DNA of 4,248 nt from a virus (Duplodnaviria > Heunggongvirae > Uroviricota > Caudoviricetes). The notes under the pieces are model-generated. The model was not told the DNA's origin. It did no database searches and saw only the letters and a program-made list of their open reading frames with translations. This document shows positions 1 to 4,248 of this stretch, one piece after another. The stretch lies in the IMG/VR virus record IMGVR_UViG_3300014970_000027; one strand, written 5' to 3'. The first letter of the stretch is position 1. Every line of letters starts with the position of its first letter. A program made the translations under genes and the position numbers.

Positions 1-164
1 ACGCAAAAGTTTATGTTGAAGGCGCATGGAATCGGGTTACGAATAAAAAAGGTAATACTTCACTTTATGATCACAATAATAACACTTCAGACTACAGCAA
101 AAATGGAGCAGGTATAGAAAACTATAACTTCATCACTACTGCTGGTCTTAAGTACACATTTTAA
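1..164 (+). CDS. ompT: Outer-membrane protease OmpT (omptin), 3' end only; 5' part lies outside the window
   Basis: The + frame that begins at position 3 is open from the window edge to a TAA stop at 162..164. It translates to AKVYVEGAWNRVTNKKGNTSLYDHNNNTSDYSKNGAGIENYNFITTAGLKYTF*, which I recognise as the C-terminus of E. coli OmpT. It is convergent with appY, as I recall for the E. coli K-12 locus. Confidence 0.85.
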   Translation, partial: AKVYVEGAWNRVTNKKGNTSLYDHNNNTSDYSKNGAGIENYNFITTAGLKYTF

Positions 165-538: not shown

Positions 539-1288
539 TCAGTCAATTGTTTTGTTTATTCCATCTGTGACGCCGATTATTTTCTCAAAATAATGAGATG
601 GCGTGACACCATAATAATTTTTAAATGCACATATGAAATATGAAGTACTGTTATAGCCACATTTCTGGGCTACGACATTGATAGAATAAGAATTTGAAGT
701 TATGAGTTTTTTTGCATACCTCATCCTAGTATCTCTCAATATTTCAGTAAATGACGTTCCTTCATCCCTTAATCTTTTTTTTATTAAACTTTCACTCGTA
801 TAAATCAATTCCGCAATATCTTTTAAATGCCATTGCCGCTCAATATTAAAACTGATTATTCCAGTAATTTTACAGGTGAATGTATTTATATTTGTTAGTA
901 TAAAAGAATTTACACTTTCGCGTTTTTTGAACATGGCAAGTAAGGATATACATAGTCTTTCTTTTAACCAAAGGGAGTGTGAGTCTGCTATTTTAATCCC
1001 TTCAAACAGAGAAAAAACAAGCGATAATGGAGGTTCCTCTTCAGCAATATAGCCATTCTTATCAAGAGTAAATTTGCCAGGCAGCTCATTATTCACGTCG
1101 ATAAAAAAGGATAAACATGTTTTCTTATCTATATCAACAATTCTTAGTTTAGAGGGGCATACTGGTAACTCCCTTCTAATTTTGTCGCTTACAATAAACA
1201 ATGAATTTTTTTTGAACGAGATAACTCTCCTGTTTATAATTAAATCAAATGATTGACAGATGAAAACTACGGAGCAAACATAATCCAT
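539..1288 (-). CDS. appY: AraC-family transcriptional activator AppY (249 aa)
   Basis: Complete ORF from ATG at 1288..1286 to its stop, preceded by an AGGTGCAGG Shine-Dalgarno-like sequence. The translation begins [27 protein letters not shown], which I recognise as E. coli AppY. The C-terminal ~100 aa has the typical AraC/XylS double helix-turn-helix region (...[40 protein letters not shown]...[23 protein letters not shown]). The gene is AT-rich (about 32% GC in a hand-counted 60-nt sample at 601..660). Confidence 0.9.
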
Positions 1289-1860
1289 CCTGCACCTATC
1301 ATAAAATTAAAACAAGTTGATAGCAGTCAAATAACAACCAATTAAATACACAATCATAATCAGGATGATGTGCATTTATATTTTTATACACAAAATTATA
1401 GTTTGCAAATTTTAATAAATTTCATTTAAGATTAAATTATTATATGTATATTCTTTTTTATTCTAACGTATTTCAAAGTTACATTTTTCAACGCTTACTA
1501 TACTTTTTATTAACATAAACTCACTACAACGCACCTGAAACCTCTTGCTATATATATGTCAACCGTTTGAATTTAAAATAAAAAGAGTATCATTTTTACT
1601 TGCATTTCTTATCAAGTCACATTCAACAACAGTAAAAAAACATTATTAGAACCATTCAATTAACAAAAAACCAACATCCAGCTTGCTTAATTTTTCTTTA
1701 TTAAACGATATTGAAAATCAATTGATAAAATACATCTAAACAACCTTTTGGGGCGCAAAAGCATAACATCAAACAAACAAATAACACACCGAAAAAACTC
1801 ACAATTAATAACCTATGATATACATACTGTTTATTATGGTTGAATAAGCCACTCGATATC
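1289..1860 (-). promoter_or_regulatory. Extremely AT-rich, ORF-free upstream/leader region of appY; presumed promoter and nucleoid-protein (H-NS-type) silencing region
   Basis: The six-frame track shows no ORF of 60 aa or more on either strand. A hand-counted 60-nt sample at 1381..1440 is about 12% GC. The region sits directly 5' of the appY start on the - strand. Exact -35/-10 elements were not assigned. Confidence 0.5.
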
Positions 1861-1913
1861 TGGTGCTACGGAAGTGTCCACACGGTTTAGCAGCACCCGA
1901 TACTTTTTCCAGG

Positions 1914-1923
1914 NNNNNNNNNN
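1914..1923. other. Run of 10 ambiguous bases (N); assembly gap or masked sequence
   Basis: Literal nnnnnnnnnn in the sequence, located in the intergenic region 50 nt downstream (on the - strand) of the 97-aa gene stop. Confidence 0.99.
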
Positions 1924-1972
1924 AAGAAAAATTTAGTTTTCTTCCTCCGTTGCATATACAGCTCACCTTTTT

Positions 1973-2266
1973 TCACCCACGATTAACCAACAGCCAGACC
2001 AGCAGACACGCCACCACCGGCACAGCAAAATCCATCAGGCTTGCCACATCCCATGCACGTGTATCAAAACCGCCCCACCACGGCATATTCATTCGCTTGC
2101 CATGCCCGAACATTTCGATCCAGCGATATTCTGCCTGGGTGTGTTCACGCGCAATGAAGAACGTACAACCGGCTATCGCCCCGTAAGCCCAGTTTCCGGT
2201 AAAAAGACCAACCAGTACCTGCGCAGCCACAGCACAAAGTGCATGAAGGAAAGGTGTTATATCCAT
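1973..2266 (-). CDS. Small predicted multi-pass membrane protein (97 aa), unknown function; last gene of the tail-fibre operon
   Basis: ATG at 2266..2264 is preceded by a strong Shine-Dalgarno sequence (AAGGAGG, complement of 2271..2276) with a 4-nt spacer, 10 nt after the stop of the upstream 234-aa gene. The translation has two long hydrophobic stretches (about residues 9-38, ALCAVAAQVLVGLFTGNWAYGAIAGCTFFIA, and about 75-93, LMDFAVPVVACLLVWLLV) separated by a charged, aromatic-rich loop (REHTQAEYRWIEMFGHGKRMNMPWWGGFDTRAWD). No lipobox was found. Confidence 0.6.
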   Translation of the reverse strand: MDITPFLHALCAVAAQVLVGLFTGNWAYGAIAGCTFFIAREHTQAEYRWIEMFGHGKRMNMPWWGGFDTRAWDVASLMDFAVPVVACLLVWLLVNRG

Positions 2267-2270
2267 TACG

Positions 2271-2276
2271 CCTCCT
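2271..2276 (-). promoter_or_regulatory. Shine-Dalgarno sequence (AGGAGG) for the 97-aa membrane protein gene
   Basis: The - strand reads TAA-AGGAGG-CGTA-ATG; this is a perfect consensus ribosome-binding site at optimal spacing. Confidence 0.65.
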
Positions 2277-2981
2277 TTATCCGATATCGCTTCGGGAAGT
2301 TAATAACAACTTTAATTCTGACTCAAGTTCATCAACTCTTTCAGTCAGTTTCTGGATATGGTGAATCAGTGGAACAACCAGACGTTCGTACATTACACCT
2401 TCGGCAACAAGGCCATTGCTGGAAATAGCTTCAGGAGCATCATCTTCGTTAGCTGGTCGCCAGTGTACAAACTGAGGGGCAATTTCTCCTACTTCCTCGG
2501 CAATCAATCCGTAGAACCCCCAGTCACGCCTGTCATTTTCGCATTGCGACCTGTACCACACAGGGCGCATCCTGAAAATGACATCGGCGTGCTCTGAATC
2601 TATCGTCTCTACTGAATGTTTATAGCGAATAGACGATGTTGACCGCAGTACAGACGAAATTGCAGGGTCAGGATTAAGATAAAGGTTTGCCGCCGCTGTA
2701 GTCGTGCCCAATCCCCACAAATAAAACGCTTCACGGCCAGTCAACGGGTAAAAATCTCCACCATAACGACCGCTTTCCAGATCGTTCACTTCCAGTTTGT
2801 TTTTCAGCTTATTATCAACTTCAGTTTTTGTGTATCTGGTACTGATATCCTGCTTTGCACTGGTCATATCAGTCTGAAGCGTTGATACTTTTCCGTTAAT
2901 TGAGGAAATATCTTCCTTAGTTTTACTGACATCTCCCTTTAGCGTGGTGATATCTCCTGGAATTACTGTCGATGTAGCCAT
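2277..2981 (-). CDS. 234-aa protein: N-terminal coiled-coil region plus C-terminal intramolecular-chaperone-like domain (peptidase S74 / 'chaperone of endosialidase' type); probable short fibre or fibre-tip protein
   Basis: ATG at 2981..2979 with a GAGGGAG Shine-Dalgarno sequence immediately upstream, overlapping the stop of the 93-aa gene. Residues ~10-70 are heptad-like and rich in K/E/D/S/T (DITTLKGDVSKTKEDISSINGKVSTLQTDMTSAKQDISTRYTKTEVDNKLKNKLEVNDLES). Residues 116-234 carry the motifs I associate with the self-cleaving C-terminal chaperone domain of phage tail fibres/tailspikes: S-x-x-R-x-K (S116-S-I-R119-Y-K121, nt 2619..2636), then PVWY, GFYGLIAEEVGEIAPQFV, and YERLVVPLIHHIQKLTERVDELESELKLL. 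Confidence 0.7.
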   Translation of the reverse strand: MATSTVIPGDITTLKGDVSKTKEDISSINGKVSTLQTDMTSAKQDISTRYTKTEVDNKLKNKLEVNDLESGRYGGDFYPLTGREAFYLWGLGTTTAAANLYLNPDPAISSVLRSTSSIRYKHSVETIDSEHADVIFRMRPVWYRSQCENDRRDWGFYGLIAEEVGEIAPQFVHWRPANEDDAPEAISSNGLVAEGVMYERLVVPLIHHIQKLTERVDELESELKLLLTSRSDIG

Positions 2982-2985
2982 TTGT

Positions 2986-2992
2986 CTCCCTC
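2986..2992 (-). promoter_or_regulatory. Shine-Dalgarno sequence for the 234-aa gene, overlapping the stop codon of the 93-aa gene
   Basis: The - strand reads TGAGGGAGACAA-ATG, a 9-nt intergenic spacer. Confidence 0.55.
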
Positions 2993-3272
2993 ACATCCAG
3001 CCACGAAGTTGATGCTCAACAACAACCGCGTATTTATCGAATATTGACGATTTTTTTGCATCATTAATGATGCGCACGTTTACAAAATATCCGTCTTCCT
3101 TAACACATACCGGTTCGCCATCTTCAGTCAGTTCTCCGGTTTCTTTGTACACGTTACCTATCACGTCAATAAGAATATCATCCTGCATCGACTCGTCATC
3201 ATAATAGCCAATACTCTCCATAAAGGCCGAAAAGTCGGCCCTGTCTGCAAATTTGAGTGTTAAATCTTTCAT
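2991..3272 (-). CDS. Small acidic hypothetical protein (93 aa), translationally coupled between the tail-fibre gene and the 234-aa gene
   Basis: Its ATG (3272..3270) overlaps the TGA stop of the tail-fibre gene (3271..3269) in an ATGA arrangement. A GGGGGAG Shine-Dalgarno sequence lies 8 nt upstream (complement of 3281..3287). The translation MKDLTLKFADRADFSAFMESIGYYDDESMQDDILIDVIGNVYKETGELTEDGEPVCVKEDGYFVNVRIINDAKKSSIFDKYAVVVEHQLRGWM is strongly acidic and has no hydrophobic segment. I recognise no family. Confidence 0.6.
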   Translation of the reverse strand: MKDLTLKFADRADFSAFMESIGYYDDESMQDDILIDVIGNVYKETGELTEDGEPVCVKEDGYFVNVRIINDAKKSSIFDKYAVVVEHQLRGWM

Positions 3273-4248
3273 TTAATACTCTCCCCCATTTGCGCATCAG
3301 TTAATTCTTTATGCCAGATACGCAGATTACGGATATGACCAAAAAGATGATACTCCCCATTAGTGCCCTGCCCTCCAATTCGCAATACTGCCCGTGGAAC
3401 AATTGAAGTCCATGTTGTTTTTGCCGCAACAGATAATTCACCATTACATACGGCCTGAACATCTCCATCAGCGCCACAACGGAAGCCTGAAATGATTTTC
3501 CTCTGGGTTGTTGCCACATATTTATTACACCCTCCCATAGAAATAAAAGGAGAACCGGCATCAGAGAAATTATTACCACGGAATCCATGCGTGAACAGAC
3601 CATTTTCCTGATAATCTTTAACATTAAAGATTAATGGTGATTTGCTGGGAGGGATATCCCAGTTTTTATTAACTTCAACAAGAGCACTGAATGGTAATCG
3701 GTGAATATTGTTTCTTACAGGTATTGTCACCATGTCGCTGGAGCGAGTGCCAGGAGCCCCTTCAGTAATGATAAATGACGTCCTGTACGACCCAATCTCC
3801 GCCTGAGGCATCGCAATATCTAACGTAGAGCCATTGGGGATAATACTGATTCCAGGCATCGCCAGGATTTCAAATCTTGAGCTGATTATCATTTCCGCAT
3901 CTGCAAAAAGAGTGGCGGTAAACAACCACCATTCACCGACTCTTTCTGCCGTCACCGTCACATTATTTCCATGAACAACATTTCCCGTAACAGGATCCAG
4001 AGCTGCATCTGAATGAAAAACAAACGCACCATTATCAGACATTTTTCCGAACCTTGCACGACACCGGGAATTATCACTTTTCGTCAGACACGATATCGTC
4101 GTATAAGAACCTGCCGGGCAGGTGTAAGCATCATTCGTGTTTACAGCAATTGCCTGATATCCTTGTGCTGTCGGATTTTCATTAATAACAGTTATCCTTC
4201 CATAGTTAAACCCCTTATCACTGTCGAACGACTCAACAGACACACTAA
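3269..4248 (-). CDS. Phage tail-fibre / host-specificity protein, C-terminal region with lectin-like (LamG/concanavalin-A-like) distal domain; 5' end probably outside the window
   Basis: The reading frame is open to the window edge; the first in-window candidate start is a GTG at 4243..4241, so the gene is probably longer. Stop is TGA at 3271..3269. The C-terminal sequence ...RIGGQGTNGEYHLFGHIRNLRIWHKELTDAQM resembles the terminal signature of LamG_3-type jelly-roll domains (F-x-G-x-I-D-E-V-R-I-Y-N-R-A-L-S-x-x-E-I). The translation is rich in G/S/T/N and beta-strand-like. About 52% GC in a hand-counted sample at 2401..2460 of the same module. Confidence 0.7.
   Translation of the reverse strand, partial: SVSVESFDSDKGFNYGRITVINENPTAQGYQAIAVNTNDAYTCPAGSYTTISCLTKSDNSRCRARFGKMSDNGAFVFHSDAALDPVTGNVVHGNNVTVTAERVGEWWLFTATLFADAEMIISSRFEILAMPGISIIPNGSTLDIAMPQAEIGSYRTSFIITEGAPGTRSSDMVTIPVRNNIHRLPFSALVEVNKNWDIPPSKSPLIFNVKDYQENGLFTHGFRGNNFSDAGSPFISMGGCNKYVATTQRKIISGFRCGADGDVQAVCNGELSVAAKTTWTSIVPRAVLRIGGQGTNGEYHLFGHIRNLRIWHKELTDAQMGESIK

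What the first reader, a model, noticed from the sequence alone, without database searches (positions are those of the whole stretch)
1973..4248. Tail-fibre distal operon with non-canonical gene content (no Tfa-type assembly chaperone)
Four - strand genes are packed with an ATGA overlap and 9-10 nt spacers, each with a Shine-Dalgarno sequence, which implies co-translation as one unit: fibre (LamG tip), 93-aa acidic protein, 234-aa coiled-coil/chaperone-domain protein, 97-aa membrane protein. Lambdoid side-tail-fibre modules normally end in stf followed by tfa. None of the three downstream ORFs shows the conserved Tfa C-terminal region as I know it. The module therefore looks like an uncharacterised variant of the host-recognition apparatus.
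Basis: partly seen in the sequence, partly recalled or inferred. Interest (0 to 1): 0.6.

Follow-up and report, generated by a model that had tools for sequence, protein, structure and literature searches.

The report
Two-part side tail fibre cassette
This is the end of a prophage side-tail-fibre operon that uses a widely shared, Tfa-free cassette (lectin-tipped fibre, small partner protein, self-chaperoning mini-fibre, small membrane protein); the layout is common in coliphages, but two of its small proteins have no known function.

Summary
Four tightly packed minus-strand genes (Stf C-terminus, 93 aa, 234 aa, 97 aa) are present, with an ATGA overlap, 9- and 10-nt spacers and Shine-Dalgarno sites. 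None is a Tfa by Pfam, profile-profile or fold comparison.

The arrangement is not an oddity. The Stf tip (~315 aa, lectin-like) and the small protein always occur together, in lambdoid, T1-like, Dhillonvirus, 9g-like, T5-like and rV5-like phages. The T5-like BASEL phage IrisVonRoten has the same three genes in the same order; published models treat two of them (Gp22, Gp24) as a proximal and a distal fibre. The 234-aa protein is a short distal fibre: a conserved N-terminal motif, a coiled coil, and a Peptidase_S74 intramolecular chaperone with its Ser116/Lys121 dyad intact. That domain does the folding job Tfa does elsewhere.

The 97-aa three-helix membrane protein is a separate family. It sits next to receptor-binding genes in most of the otherwise unrelated phages examined, nearly all temperate.

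A Tfa 3' remnant lies 18 bp downstream, marking an old cassette replacement. The best-matching annotated genome places this copy in a defective DLP12-site prophage beside appY and ompT.

Verdict: an ordinary member of a known kind of module. The 93-aa and 97-aa proteins remain uncharacterised.

The parts
3269..4248 (-). C-terminal ~325 residues of the side tail fibre Stf, which is 782 aa in the identical gene of strain ECCWS199. This portion is the conserved fibre tip module. The ORF continues beyond the window edge.
   Evidence: The window portion is 100% identical to residues 459-782 of WP_105166098.1. It is 33-38% identical (E 1e-43 to 1e-60) to the last ~315 aa of lateral fibre proteins of IrisVonRoten, tinuso, rolling, ESCO3, CarlMeissner and lambdoid phages. 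It matches phrog_1419 'tail protein' at 6.9e-86.
3740..4186 (-). First beta-sandwich domain of the tip (residues 20-168 of the window ORF), similar to the GTA head-spike-fibre domain.
   Evidence: NCBIfam NF048003 GTA_spike_fiber, 43.9 bits against a cut-off of 36.
3290..3460 (-). C-terminal part of a LamG / concanavalin-A-like lectin domain. It ends in the motif HLFGHxRNxRIWHKxLTDxQ, which is conserved in all homologous fibres.
   Evidence: Pfam Laminin_G_3, weak: 16.7 bits, below the gathering score. The motif is seen in all 11 fibre tips compared. The orthologous domain of IrisVonRoten Gp22 is described as galectin-like in PMC11990801.
2991..3272 (-). 93-aa acidic small protein (phrog_1361), translationally coupled to Stf through an ATGA overlap. 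It is an obligate partner of the lectin-type tip. Its probable role is joint/adaptor or tip cap.
   Evidence: The AF2 model has pLDDT 83.7 and a small alpha/beta sandwich fold. There is no significant PDB match.
2277..2981 (-). 234-aa short distal fibre: N-terminal docking motif (MATSTVIPGDITTLK), coiled coil to about residue 66, a small tip region, then a Peptidase_S74 intramolecular chaperone.
   Evidence: Pfam PF13884. phrog_3299 and phrog_454 match the C-terminal ends of tail fibres. The DT57C LtfA chain 8hqz_d matches at E 2e-7. It is 57% identical over its full length to the 224-aa protein of the lytic phage tinuso. The N-terminal motif is shared with Tritos, ESCO3, tinuso, rolling and IrisVonRoten Gp24.
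2280..2636 (-). Intramolecular chaperone (S74) region, residues 116-234, with the predicted autocleavage dyad Ser116/Lys121 (SSIRYK).
   Evidence: The Ser and Lys columns are invariant in the six second-fibre proteins aligned.
1973..2266 (-). 97-aa membrane protein with three helices (phrog_1443) and an invariant REHTQAEYRW ... MPWWGGFD loop. It is a separable family found beside receptor-binding genes, mainly in temperate phages.
1843..1953 (-). 3' remnant of a Tfa tail-fibre-assembly gene (pseudogene), interrupted in the window by a masked run of 10 N at 1914-1923. It is the scar of the cassette replacement.
   Evidence: RefSeq annotates it as 'tail fiber assembly protein, incomplete' in L001. 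Translation is and the alignment. The same remnant lies at a fixed distance after the membrane-protein gene in 49 of 90 IMG/VR loci.

Best explanation
The region is the distal end of a lambdoid side-tail-fibre operon that carries a horizontally shared lateral-fibre cassette in place of the classical stf-tfa pair.

1. Stf is the proximal fibre. Its last ~315 residues form two lectin-like beta-sandwich domains, one GTA-spike-fibre-like and one LamG/galectin-like. These vary strongly between otherwise near-identical cassettes. I infer that they bind surface glycan (O-antigen or LPS).

2. The 93-aa acidic protein is made in step with Stf through the ATGA overlap. I infer that it stays with the tip as a small joint or cap protein, and that it forms the docking site for the next protein.

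3. The 234-aa protein is a short, separate distal fibre.
- Its conserved N-terminal ~15 residues are inferred to attach it to the Stf tip / 93-aa junction.
- Its coiled coil is inferred to trimerise.
- Its C-terminal Peptidase_S74 intramolecular chaperone would fold the trimer and then cut itself off before Ser116. This follows from established knowledge of endosialidase and T5 pb1 chaperone domains.
- That would leave a mature piece of about 115 residues. This built-in chaperone is why no Tfa is needed.

4. The 97-aa protein is not part of the fibre. It is an inner-membrane protein that travels with receptor-binding genes, mainly in temperate phages. My best guess is that it alters or masks a cell-envelope step, acting in superinfection exclusion or surface conversion. 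This is the weakest step.

What is shown: gene order, coupling, homologies, domain content, distribution, and the absence of Tfa. What is inferred: who binds whom, autocleavage, and the role of the membrane protein.

In the best-matching annotated genome the cassette lies in a deleted, DLP12-site prophage, so this particular copy is probably cryptic.
For: Anatomy.

S74 domain and dyad.

Same three-gene order with the same overlaps:
- IrisVonRoten bas32_0022 to 0024. Gp22 and Gp24 have been modelled as a proximal fibre with a galectin-like tip plus a distal fibre carrying an intramolecular chaperone (PMC11990801).
- Also tinuso, ESCO3, rolling, Tritos and PhiR49_1.

Tip and small protein always adjacent: seen in all 165 IMG/VR loci that could be assessed and in all annotated phage loci examined.

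Evidence that the tip is the variable, receptor-facing part: its last 120 aa range from 41% to 100% identity among cassettes whose small protein stays at >=91%.

Link between the small protein and the second fibre: small-protein divergence tracks the second fibre's N-terminal 25 residues (r = 0.91) and not the tip (r = -0.08) over 21 pairs. The conserved N-terminal motif of the second fibre lies directly after the small gene in every record where the two hit lists could be cross-checked.

The short second fibre is a real protein: 57% identical over its full length to that of a lytic T1-like phage.

Membrane protein beside receptor-binding genes of unrelated types:
- after a P22-like tailspike;
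- after Tfa in phiHAP-1;
- after a P2-like fibre in Aeromonas;
- shortly after gpJ in Comamonas, with one 72-aa gene between;
- between two tailspike genes in Salmonella;
- after a large unannotated protein at the end of the late-gene block in phage HC6.

The membrane-protein gene is absent from the lytic phages that carry the fibre cassette.

Defective prophage context.
Against: - No experiment or complex model places the 93-aa protein or the 234-aa protein in a virion. I could not run multimer predictions.
- The small protein persists, intact and conserved, in a large lambdoid clade with no second fibre (47 IMG/VR loci; Lambda_ev203; PhiR41_1; CarlMeissner). A pure adaptor role therefore cannot be its only function.
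- The correlation rests on 7 non-independent modules, and the genes compared are physically linked.
- The short second fibre has only about 50 residues between the coiled coil and the cleavage site, and may not bind any receptor.
- The LamG assignment by Pfam is below threshold.
- For the membrane protein, no promoter of its own was detected. There is no similarity to any known exclusion or conversion protein. In phiHAP-1 and the Aeromonas prophage it sits inside a late operon. Partial homologs also exist in some lytic or jumbo phages, one of them not beside a receptor-binding gene.
Confidence: 0.6

Rival explanations
1. The 234-aa protein is not a fibre. It is a trans-acting chaperone or transient cap for Stf: a free-standing intramolecular-chaperone-like domain that helps the Stf trimer fold and then leaves.
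For: - BASEL GenBank records name the homologous gene in Drexlerviridae (PeterMerian, KarlJaspers) 'putative lateral tail fiber chaperone'. Other records call it 'endosialidase chaperone'.
- There is a precedent. Separately encoded chaperones of Alteromonas phages V22 and A5 resemble intramolecular chaperone domains and are proposed to act as transient caps (bioRxiv 10.1101/2023.03.07.531524).
- The mature part of the short form is very small.
Against: - Homologous Stf tips occur without any such gene in 47 lambdoid loci and in isolated phages of the Lambda_ev203 type. The tip therefore does not need it.
- The protein has a conserved fibre-type N-terminus and a coiled coil. Longer alleles carry 120-350 extra residues between the N-terminus and the chaperone domain (Tritos 346 aa, ESCO3 351 aa, IrisVonRoten Gp24 574 aa). 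Gp24 has been modelled as a T-shaped fibre with two receptor-binding domains.
- The cis-cleavage dyad is conserved.
- Stf ends in globular lectin domains, not in the triple-beta-helix type of substrate that S74 chaperones are known to fold.
Confidence: 0.15
2. The 93-aa protein is a functional analogue of Tfa. It would be a dedicated folding helper or permanent tip subunit for the lectin-type Stf tip, with no role in attaching the second fibre.
For: - It is strictly adjacent to the lectin-type tip, with a start/stop overlap in every group examined, including modules that lack a second fibre.
- It occupies the position that Tfa occupies after stf.
- Tfa-type proteins of Mu and lambda are known to stay on the fibre tip (established knowledge, North et al. 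2019, cited).
Against: - There is no sequence or fold similarity to Tfa.
- Its sequence does not co-vary with the tip (r = -0.08), although it does with the second fibre's N-terminus (r = 0.91).
- It stays at >=91% identity while the tip drops to about 41%. That is unexpected for a chaperone that must recognise the variable domain.
- This rival is not exclusive of the adaptor role.
Confidence: 0.35
3. In this genome the module is simply a non-functional relic of a decayed prophage. Its intact reading frames reflect recent decay, or use only as recombination material for incoming phages.
For: - In strain ECCWS199, which is 100% identical across the finding's 2276-bp query (window 1973-4248), the prophage at the DLP12 site has a J fragment fused to a terminase fragment and lacks head and tail-shaft genes.
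- The window itself carries the neighbouring ompT 3' end and appY.
- A Tfa fragment lies downstream.
Against: - All four reading frames are intact. They are over 90% identical to those of inducible, plaque-forming phages such as PhiR49_1 and IdasGreatGrand.
- This rival concerns the local copy only. It does not say what the cassette is.
- The window does not show the upstream part of the prophage.
Confidence: 0.7
4. The 97-aa membrane protein acts during lytic growth rather than in the lysogen, for example as a lysis-timing or holin-like factor, or as a membrane factor for maturation of receptor-binding proteins.
For: - It has no promoter of its own and sits 10 nt behind a late gene.
- It lies within late operons in phiHAP-1 and in an Aeromonas P2-like prophage.
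- In Aeromonas phage 62AhydR11PP it lies among small unannotated genes.
- It is a small three-helix membrane protein.
Against: - It is absent from all lytic phages that carry the same fibre cassette.
- The lambdoid and P22-like hosts already have complete lysis cassettes elsewhere.
- The most conserved part is a polar loop, not the helices.
- In P22-like phages it occupies the slot after the tailspike gene where surface-conversion genes are usually found. This last point rests on my own knowledge of P22, Sf6 and related phages.
Confidence: 0.15

Closest known systems
Lateral tail fibre locus of the T5-like phage IrisVonRoten (Bas32): Gp22 proximal fibre, Gp23, Gp24 distal T-shaped fibre (PMC11990801)
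   Same: - Three genes in the same order, with an ATGA-type overlap and a 9-nt spacer.
- The Gp22 tip is homologous to the Stf tip: 36% identity over 333 aa, E 1.5e-60.
- Gp23 is a homologue of the 93-aa protein: 38% identity, E 4e-16.
- Gp24 shares the N-terminal motif and the S74 chaperone.
   Different: - Here the proximal fibre has a lambda Stf-type N-terminus and is mounted on a lambdoid tail.
[quoted passage not shown]
- A fourth gene, for the membrane protein, follows.
- The paper does not discuss the small protein.
Lambda / Rac / e14 stf-tfa side-tail-fibre modules
   Same: - Same position after J (and after lom in lambda and PhiR49_1), same Stf N-terminal domain, same late operon.
- A Tfa 3' remnant still marks the old module.
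   Different: - The distal half of Stf and the whole of tfa have been replaced.
- No intact Tfa is present.
- Folding of the distal element is provided by a cis-acting S74 chaperone. The tip is lectin-like rather than a gp37-like fibre tip.
Branched LtfA/LtfB lateral fibres of the T5-like phage DT57C (PMC4728585, PMC10713586)
   Same: - Two-protein lateral fibre in which the second protein hangs on the first.
- The S74 chaperone of the 234-aa protein matches the DT57C chain 8hqz_d, named 'L-shaped tail fiber assembly', at E 2e-7.
   Different: - LtfA itself ends in an intramolecular chaperone.
- I did not check the DT57C locus for a lectin-type tip or a small partner gene.
- The attachment site is not comparable.
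T4 long tail fibre gene order gp34-gp35-gp36-gp37
   Same: An analogy in working principle only: gene order follows the order of parts, and a small joint protein lies between the proximal and distal fibre proteins. This rests on established knowledge; see also the abstract of PMC5537660.
   Different: No sequence or fold relationship was found. T4 uses the separate chaperones gp38 and gp57A.
Exclusion and conversion genes linked to receptor-binding genes (T5 llp, phi80/T1 cor, P22 gtrABC/sieA, HK97 gp15)
   Same: The 97-aa gene sits directly beside receptor-binding genes and is almost confined to temperate elements.
   Different: - No homology to any of them: Pfam, NCBIfam and PADLOC are all negative.
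- It is not a lipoprotein.
- No promoter of its own was detected.
- It accompanies many unrelated receptor-binding protein types.

Membership tests
Tfa-type tail fibre assembly chaperones (lambda Tfa, Mu/P2 type) | Sequence match to a Tfa profile or to lambda Tfa | tested here: not met
   No Tfa family for the 93-, 234- or 97-aa products at E<=1 in Pfam. hhalign of the 93-aa family against lambda Tfa gives probability 0.07%. BLASTP of the 234-aa protein against Tfa gives E 1.6.
Tfa-type tail fibre assembly chaperones (lambda Tfa, Mu/P2 type) | Fold similarity to solved Tfa structures | tested here: not met
Tfa-type tail fibre assembly chaperones (lambda Tfa, Mu/P2 type) | Gene immediately downstream of, and coupled to, the fibre gene | tested here: met
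   ATGA overlap between stf and the 93-aa gene. This is positional evidence only.
Peptidase_S74 intramolecular-chaperone fibre/spike proteins (endosialidase, T5 pb1 type) | C-terminal S74 domain above Pfam's gathering score | tested here: met
   PF13884, residues 116-172, 27.2 bits against 22. Supported by phrog_454 and phrog_1699 fibre C-termini and by 8hqz_d.
Peptidase_S74 intramolecular-chaperone fibre/spike proteins (endosialidase, T5 pb1 type) | Catalytic Ser-Lys dyad at the cleavage site (S-x-x-x-x-K) | tested here: met
   S116 and K121 (SSIRYK). Both columns are invariant in the six aligned second-fibre proteins.
Peptidase_S74 intramolecular-chaperone fibre/spike proteins (endosialidase, T5 pb1 type) | Autoproteolytic release of the chaperone after trimer folding | not testable with these tools
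   Needs protein expression of the wild type and an S116A mutant.
Peptidase_S74 intramolecular-chaperone fibre/spike proteins (endosialidase, T5 pb1 type) | Trimeric fibre or spike body upstream of the chaperone | tested here: inconclusive
   There are only about 115 residues upstream. Residues 1-66 give weak coiled-coil-type hits (LPP, P22 gp26 needle). No structure was predicted for this protein.
Two-part lateral fibre cassette (lectin-type tip + small protein + S74 distal fibre), as in IrisVonRoten Gp22-24 | Homologous ~315-aa fibre tip ending in HLFGHxRNxRIWHKxLTDxQ | tested here: met
   33-38% identity, E 1e-43 to 1e-60, to seven phage groups.
Two-part lateral fibre cassette (lectin-type tip + small protein + S74 distal fibre), as in IrisVonRoten Gp22-24 | phrog_1361 small protein directly after the tip, with start/stop overlap | tested here: met
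   phrog_1361 at 1e-46. Adjacency holds in all loci examined.
Two-part lateral fibre cassette (lectin-type tip + small protein + S74 distal fibre), as in IrisVonRoten Gp22-24 | Distal fibre with the conserved N-terminus M[AV]TxTxIPxDIxxL and a C-terminal S74 domain | tested here: met
Two-part lateral fibre cassette (lectin-type tip + small protein + S74 distal fibre), as in IrisVonRoten Gp22-24 | Distal fibre carries recognisable receptor-binding domains (the T-shaped dual domains of Gp24) | tested here: not met
   The 234-aa form aligns to Gp24 only at residues 1-28 and in the chaperone region. The central domains are absent, as in the 224-aa tinuso protein.
Two-part lateral fibre cassette (lectin-type tip + small protein + S74 distal fibre), as in IrisVonRoten Gp22-24 | Physical attachment of the distal fibre to the proximal fibre | not testable with these tools
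Published models exist only for IrisVonRoten (PMC11990801).
Known superinfection-exclusion / surface-conversion membrane proteins | Homology to a described family (SieA, gp15, Cor, Llp, Gtr, Oac, or PADLOC models) | tested here: not met
   Pfam, NCBIfam and PADLOC are negative for the 97-aa protein. All 120 listed homologues that carry a name are 'hypothetical protein', and none has a Pfam domain.
Known superinfection-exclusion / surface-conversion membrane proteins | Moron-like autonomy (own promoter or terminator; expression in the lysogen) | tested here: not met
   No minus-strand promoter-like site lies between 2266 and 4248, and no terminator-like site lies after 1973. These are consensus scans only. 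Expression was not tested.

The most novel reading that the evidence does not exclude
Two unnamed protein families in this operon could each define a new functional class.

(a) phrog_1361 (the 93-aa protein) could be a dedicated joint protein. It would cap lectin-tipped lateral fibres and provide a standard socket for interchangeable S74 distal fibres. That would make it a plug-and-play connector shared by siphoviruses, and by at least one myovirus group, of enterobacteria.

(b) phrog_1443 (the 97-aa protein) could be a new, widespread envelope-acting protein that temperate phages of all three tail types place next to whatever receptor-binding gene they carry. One example would be a general blocker of O-antigen- or LPS-dependent adsorption, or of DNA entry.
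Probability: 0.35. Interest if true: 0.55.

Novelty: new member of a known kind. Interest (0 to 1): 0.3.

Why it matters
For annotation: stf loci in E. coli prophages that lack tfa are not defective or exotic. They carry a common alternative cassette whose distal fibre folds itself. Some part of it is present in about a third of complete E. coli genomes.

For phage engineering: the conserved junction (tip end, small protein, 15-residue N-terminal motif of the distal fibre) is a natural swap point used across phage families. It could be exploited to retarget lambda-type particles without co-expressing Tfa.

For basic biology: the 93-aa and 97-aa families are clear, tractable targets. The first always accompanies one type of fibre tip. 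The second accompanies receptor-binding genes of many types in temperate phages. Neither has any assigned function.

Tried and rejected
- Sequence search of the PDB with the Stf tip, the 93-aa and the 97-aa proteins: nothing meaningful.
- Foldseek of the 93-aa model against viral predicted structures: only uncharacterised small phage proteins, TM 0.5-0.6.
- The afdb50 fold library was unavailable.
- PADLOC defence models: no hit.
- Rfam: no RNA family in the window.
- Exhaustive HMMER search with the 93-aa family profile: only 101 clusters. The few long multi-hit proteins turned out to be TPR or PKD repeat proteins, that is, spurious matches.
- Tail-assembly-interference (Tai) systems were considered for the small proteins. 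They are mostly encoded upstream of the packaging module and target J or the needle, and I found nothing linking them to this module. I ran no sequence comparison against Tai proteins.
- The Eligo lambda-STF engineering preprint and the Cronobacter Drexlerviridae fibre paper contained nothing on this cassette.
- An internal promoter for the 97-aa gene: not found.
The folds of the tip and the 234-aa protein therefore rest on profile hits and on the published IrisVonRoten models.

Full report
**What is in the window**

The window runs from the 3' end of ompT (1-161, + strand) through appY (539-1288, minus strand, intact 249 aa). An AT-rich spacer of 23-32% G+C follows.

It then enters a block of 41-53% G+C that holds four minus-strand genes:
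- the C-terminal ~325 codons of a side-tail-fibre gene (3269-4248, running off the window);
- a 93-aa gene (2991-3272);
- a 234-aa gene (2277-2981);
- a 97-aa gene (1973-2266).

There is an ATGA stop/start overlap, spacers of 9 and 10 nt, and GGAG-type ribosome-binding sites before each downstream start. No promoter-like site lies on the minus strand inside the block.

**Genomic setting**

The region is 100% identical to several complete E. coli chromosomes. In one of them, strain ECCWS199, RefSeq annotation shows it at the DLP12 attachment site. The flanking genes are intD and tRNA-Arg on one side and appY, ompT, envY and nfrA on the other. That prophage has lost most morphogenesis genes: a J fragment abuts a terminase fragment.

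The full fibre gene there encodes 782 aa, with a lambda Stf-type N-terminus.

Eighteen base pairs beyond the 97-aa gene lies an annotated Tfa fragment...[26 protein letters not shown]. In the window it is interrupted by a masked run of 10 N at 1914-1923. The same fragment follows the 97-aa gene at a fixed distance in 49 of 90 IMG/VR loci with enough downstream DNA. The cassette therefore replaced the distal part of an ancestral stf-tfa pair once, and that junction has been inherited widely.

**Is any product a Tfa?**

No.
- Pfam at E<=1 gives no Tfa family for any of the three downstream proteins.
- The profile of the 93-aa family aligned to lambda Tfa gives probability 0.07%.
- The 234-aa protein against Tfa gives E 1.6.
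- In the viral structure library that model matches only uncharacterised small phage proteins.

**Is the arrangement unusual?**

No.

- *Small protein.* tblastn with the 93-aa protein finds 186 phage records. They include lambdoid phages, Drexlerviridae, Dhillonvirus, Queuovirinae (Nonagvirus), T5-like Tequintavirus, rV5-like Vequintavirinae and a 108-kb circular phage record (PhiR41_1).
- *Adjacency to the tip.* In every locus I opened, the gene overlaps the stop of a fibre gene. The last ~315 residues of those fibre genes are homologous to the window's Stf portion: 33-38% identity, E 1e-43 to 1e-60. They all end in HLFGHxRNxRIWHKxLTDxQ.
- *Tip domains.* The tip matches NCBIfam GTA_spike_fiber above threshold and Laminin_G_3 weakly.
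- *Larger samples.* In 80 IMG/VR loci with a near-identical small protein, every locus with enough flanking DNA has the order tip, small, second fibre, membrane protein. In 85 further loci drawn with other small-protein clades, tip and small protein are again always adjacent.
- *IrisVonRoten.* This T5-like BASEL phage has the same three genes with the same overlap and a 9-nt spacer. Its Gp22 has been modelled as a proximal fibre with a galectin-like C-terminal domain. Its Gp24 has been modelled as a distal T-shaped fibre with an intramolecular chaperone (PMC11990801). The small Gp23 is annotated 'tail fiber protein' but is not discussed.

**The 234-aa protein**

- *Domains.* It has a Peptidase_S74 domain above Pfam's threshold. 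It matches the C-terminal ends of long tail-fibre families in PHROGs and the DT57C lateral fibre chain 8hqz_d.
- *Cleavage dyad.* The Ser116/Lys121 pair (SSIRYK) aligns with invariant Ser and Lys columns in all second-fibre proteins compared.
- *N-terminal motif.* Its first ~15 residues (MATSTVIPGDITTLK) are conserved in the second fibre of Tritos, ESCO3, tinuso and IrisVonRoten Gp24. The motif is also present in an unannotated ORF that runs off the end of the Dhillonvirus 'rolling' record. In the 60 phage records holding this motif, it lies directly after the small gene wherever the two hit lists could be cross-checked.
- *Length variation.* Between the N-terminus and the chaperone domain the length varies greatly: 224-234 aa in total here and in tinuso, 346-351 in Tritos and ESCO3, and 574 in IrisVonRoten.
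- *The short form is real.* It is 57% identical over its full length between this prophage and a lytic T1-like phage.

I read it as a separate distal fibre that folds through its own chaperone and then sheds it. That follows from what is established for endosialidase and T5 pb1. It explains the absence of Tfa.

The rival reading, a trans-acting chaperone for Stf, matches some GenBank names and has a precedent in Alteromonas phages. But homologous tips exist without this gene in a large lambdoid clade, which argues against it.

**The 93-aa protein**

- It is always with the lectin-type tip, including in modules with no second fibre: the Lambda_ev203 type, PhiR41_1 and CarlMeissner.
- Its sequence does not follow the tip. 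Among cassettes with >=91% identical small proteins, the last 120 residues of the tip range from 41% to 100% identity.
- Over 21 pairs of seven modules, small-protein identity correlates with the second fibre's N-terminal 25 residues (r = 0.91) and not with the tip (r = -0.08).
- The family is narrow: 360 clusters at 90% identity and 101 at 50%. It has no Pfam family.

My best reading is a joint or cap protein that sits on the conserved end of the tip and offers the socket for the distal fibre. A Tfa-like folding or tip-subunit role is not excluded, and the two may coexist. This step is inferred, not shown.

**The 97-aa protein**

- *Structure and conservation.* The AF2 model is confident (pLDDT 93): three helices at 4-23, 26-53 and 74-96. 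Conservation is concentrated in the loop REHTQAEYRW...MPWWGGFD, with 23 invariant positions in 46 sequences.
- *Family.* It has 469 clusters from Escherichia to Aeromonas and Comamonas. All are unnamed or 'hypothetical', and there is no Pfam, NCBIfam or PADLOC match.
- *Separable from the fibre cassette.* The lytic phages that carry the cassette lack it.
- *Beside unrelated receptor-binding genes.* It appears:
  - after a P22-like tailspike;
  - after Tfa in Halomonas phiHAP-1;
  - after a P2-like fibre in an Aeromonas prophage;
  - shortly after gpJ in Comamonas, with one 72-aa gene between;
  - between two tailspike genes in Salmonella;
  - after a large unannotated protein at the end of the late-gene block in phage HC6.
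- *Exception.* In one Aeromonas jumbo phage a partial homologue is not next to a receptor-binding gene.

I propose an envelope-acting exclusion or conversion role, with low confidence. It has no detectable promoter of its own, and in two phages it sits inside a late operon.

**Verdict**

The finding is real and correctly described. Its claim of a non-canonical module reflects comparison with lambda alone. The cassette is a common, cross-family lateral-fibre module, and part of it has already been modelled in the literature. This copy is a new member of that kind, probably cryptic in its defective prophage.

The residual interest lies in the two unnamed small proteins, whose genomic behaviour is now clearly defined but whose functions are untested.

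Noticed in passing
window 1914-1923 and flanks (about 1900-1935): A run of 10 N (masked). The 12 bases after it (AAGAAAAATTTA) differ from the otherwise identical ECCWS199 sequence (CTTCC...AGCAACGA). The masked stretch therefore hides a small local difference inside the Tfa remnant.
   Followed up: partly
window 539-1288 (- strand): appY (AraC-family activator) is an intact 249-aa ORF here. The same gene is annotated as frameshifted in strain ECCWS199, which is otherwise 100% identical over the fibre cassette.
   Followed up: no
window 1-161 (+ strand): The 3' end of ompT (...NYNFITTAGLKYTF*). The window therefore spans the ompT-appY-prophage junction of the DLP12 region.
   Followed up: partly
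window 1290-1800: A very AT-rich (23-28% G+C) non-coding stretch between appY and the prophage end, with strongly negative GC skew. It was not examined further.
   Followed up: no
L014 (Escherichia phage rolling, MN850575.1) 4772 to the end of the record: An unannotated ORF begins right after the small gene (MVTKTNIPADITALQ...) and runs off the end of the linear record. It carries the same conserved N-terminal motif as the second-fibre proteins. It was missed in the GenBank annotation because of where the record was opened.
   Followed up: yes
L001 (NZ_CP032237.1) 15704-16803: In the DLP12-site prophage of ECCWS199, a J C-terminal fragment is directly fused to a terminase small-subunit fragment. 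This is a large internal deletion that removed the head and tail-shaft genes but left the fibre cassette intact.
   Followed up: no
L003 (Lambda_4C10) 6753-9169; L013 (Lambda_ev203) 5177-8626: In the lambda-like phages of the ev203/4C10 type, the sitABCD manganese/iron transporter operon lies immediately beyond the 97-aa gene as cargo. In 4C10 an IS element has in addition been inserted into the stf tip.
   Followed up: no
L184 (Escherichia phage HC6, OL362274.1) 3501-3659: An unannotated stretch encodes a homologue of residues 41-93 of the 97-aa membrane protein. It lies just after an 859-aa unannotated protein at the end of the late-gene block, in a 47.7-kb phage record. The same is seen in ZCEC08, ST1UNAM and PBM-3.
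   Followed up: partly
IMG/VR loci L015-L094 and L099-L178: The cassettes are strongly mosaic. Near-identical small, second-fibre and membrane genes are combined with Stf tips that are only about 41-60% identical. Two second-fibre alleles (234 aa and about 346 aa) alternate behind the same small protein.
   Followed up: partly
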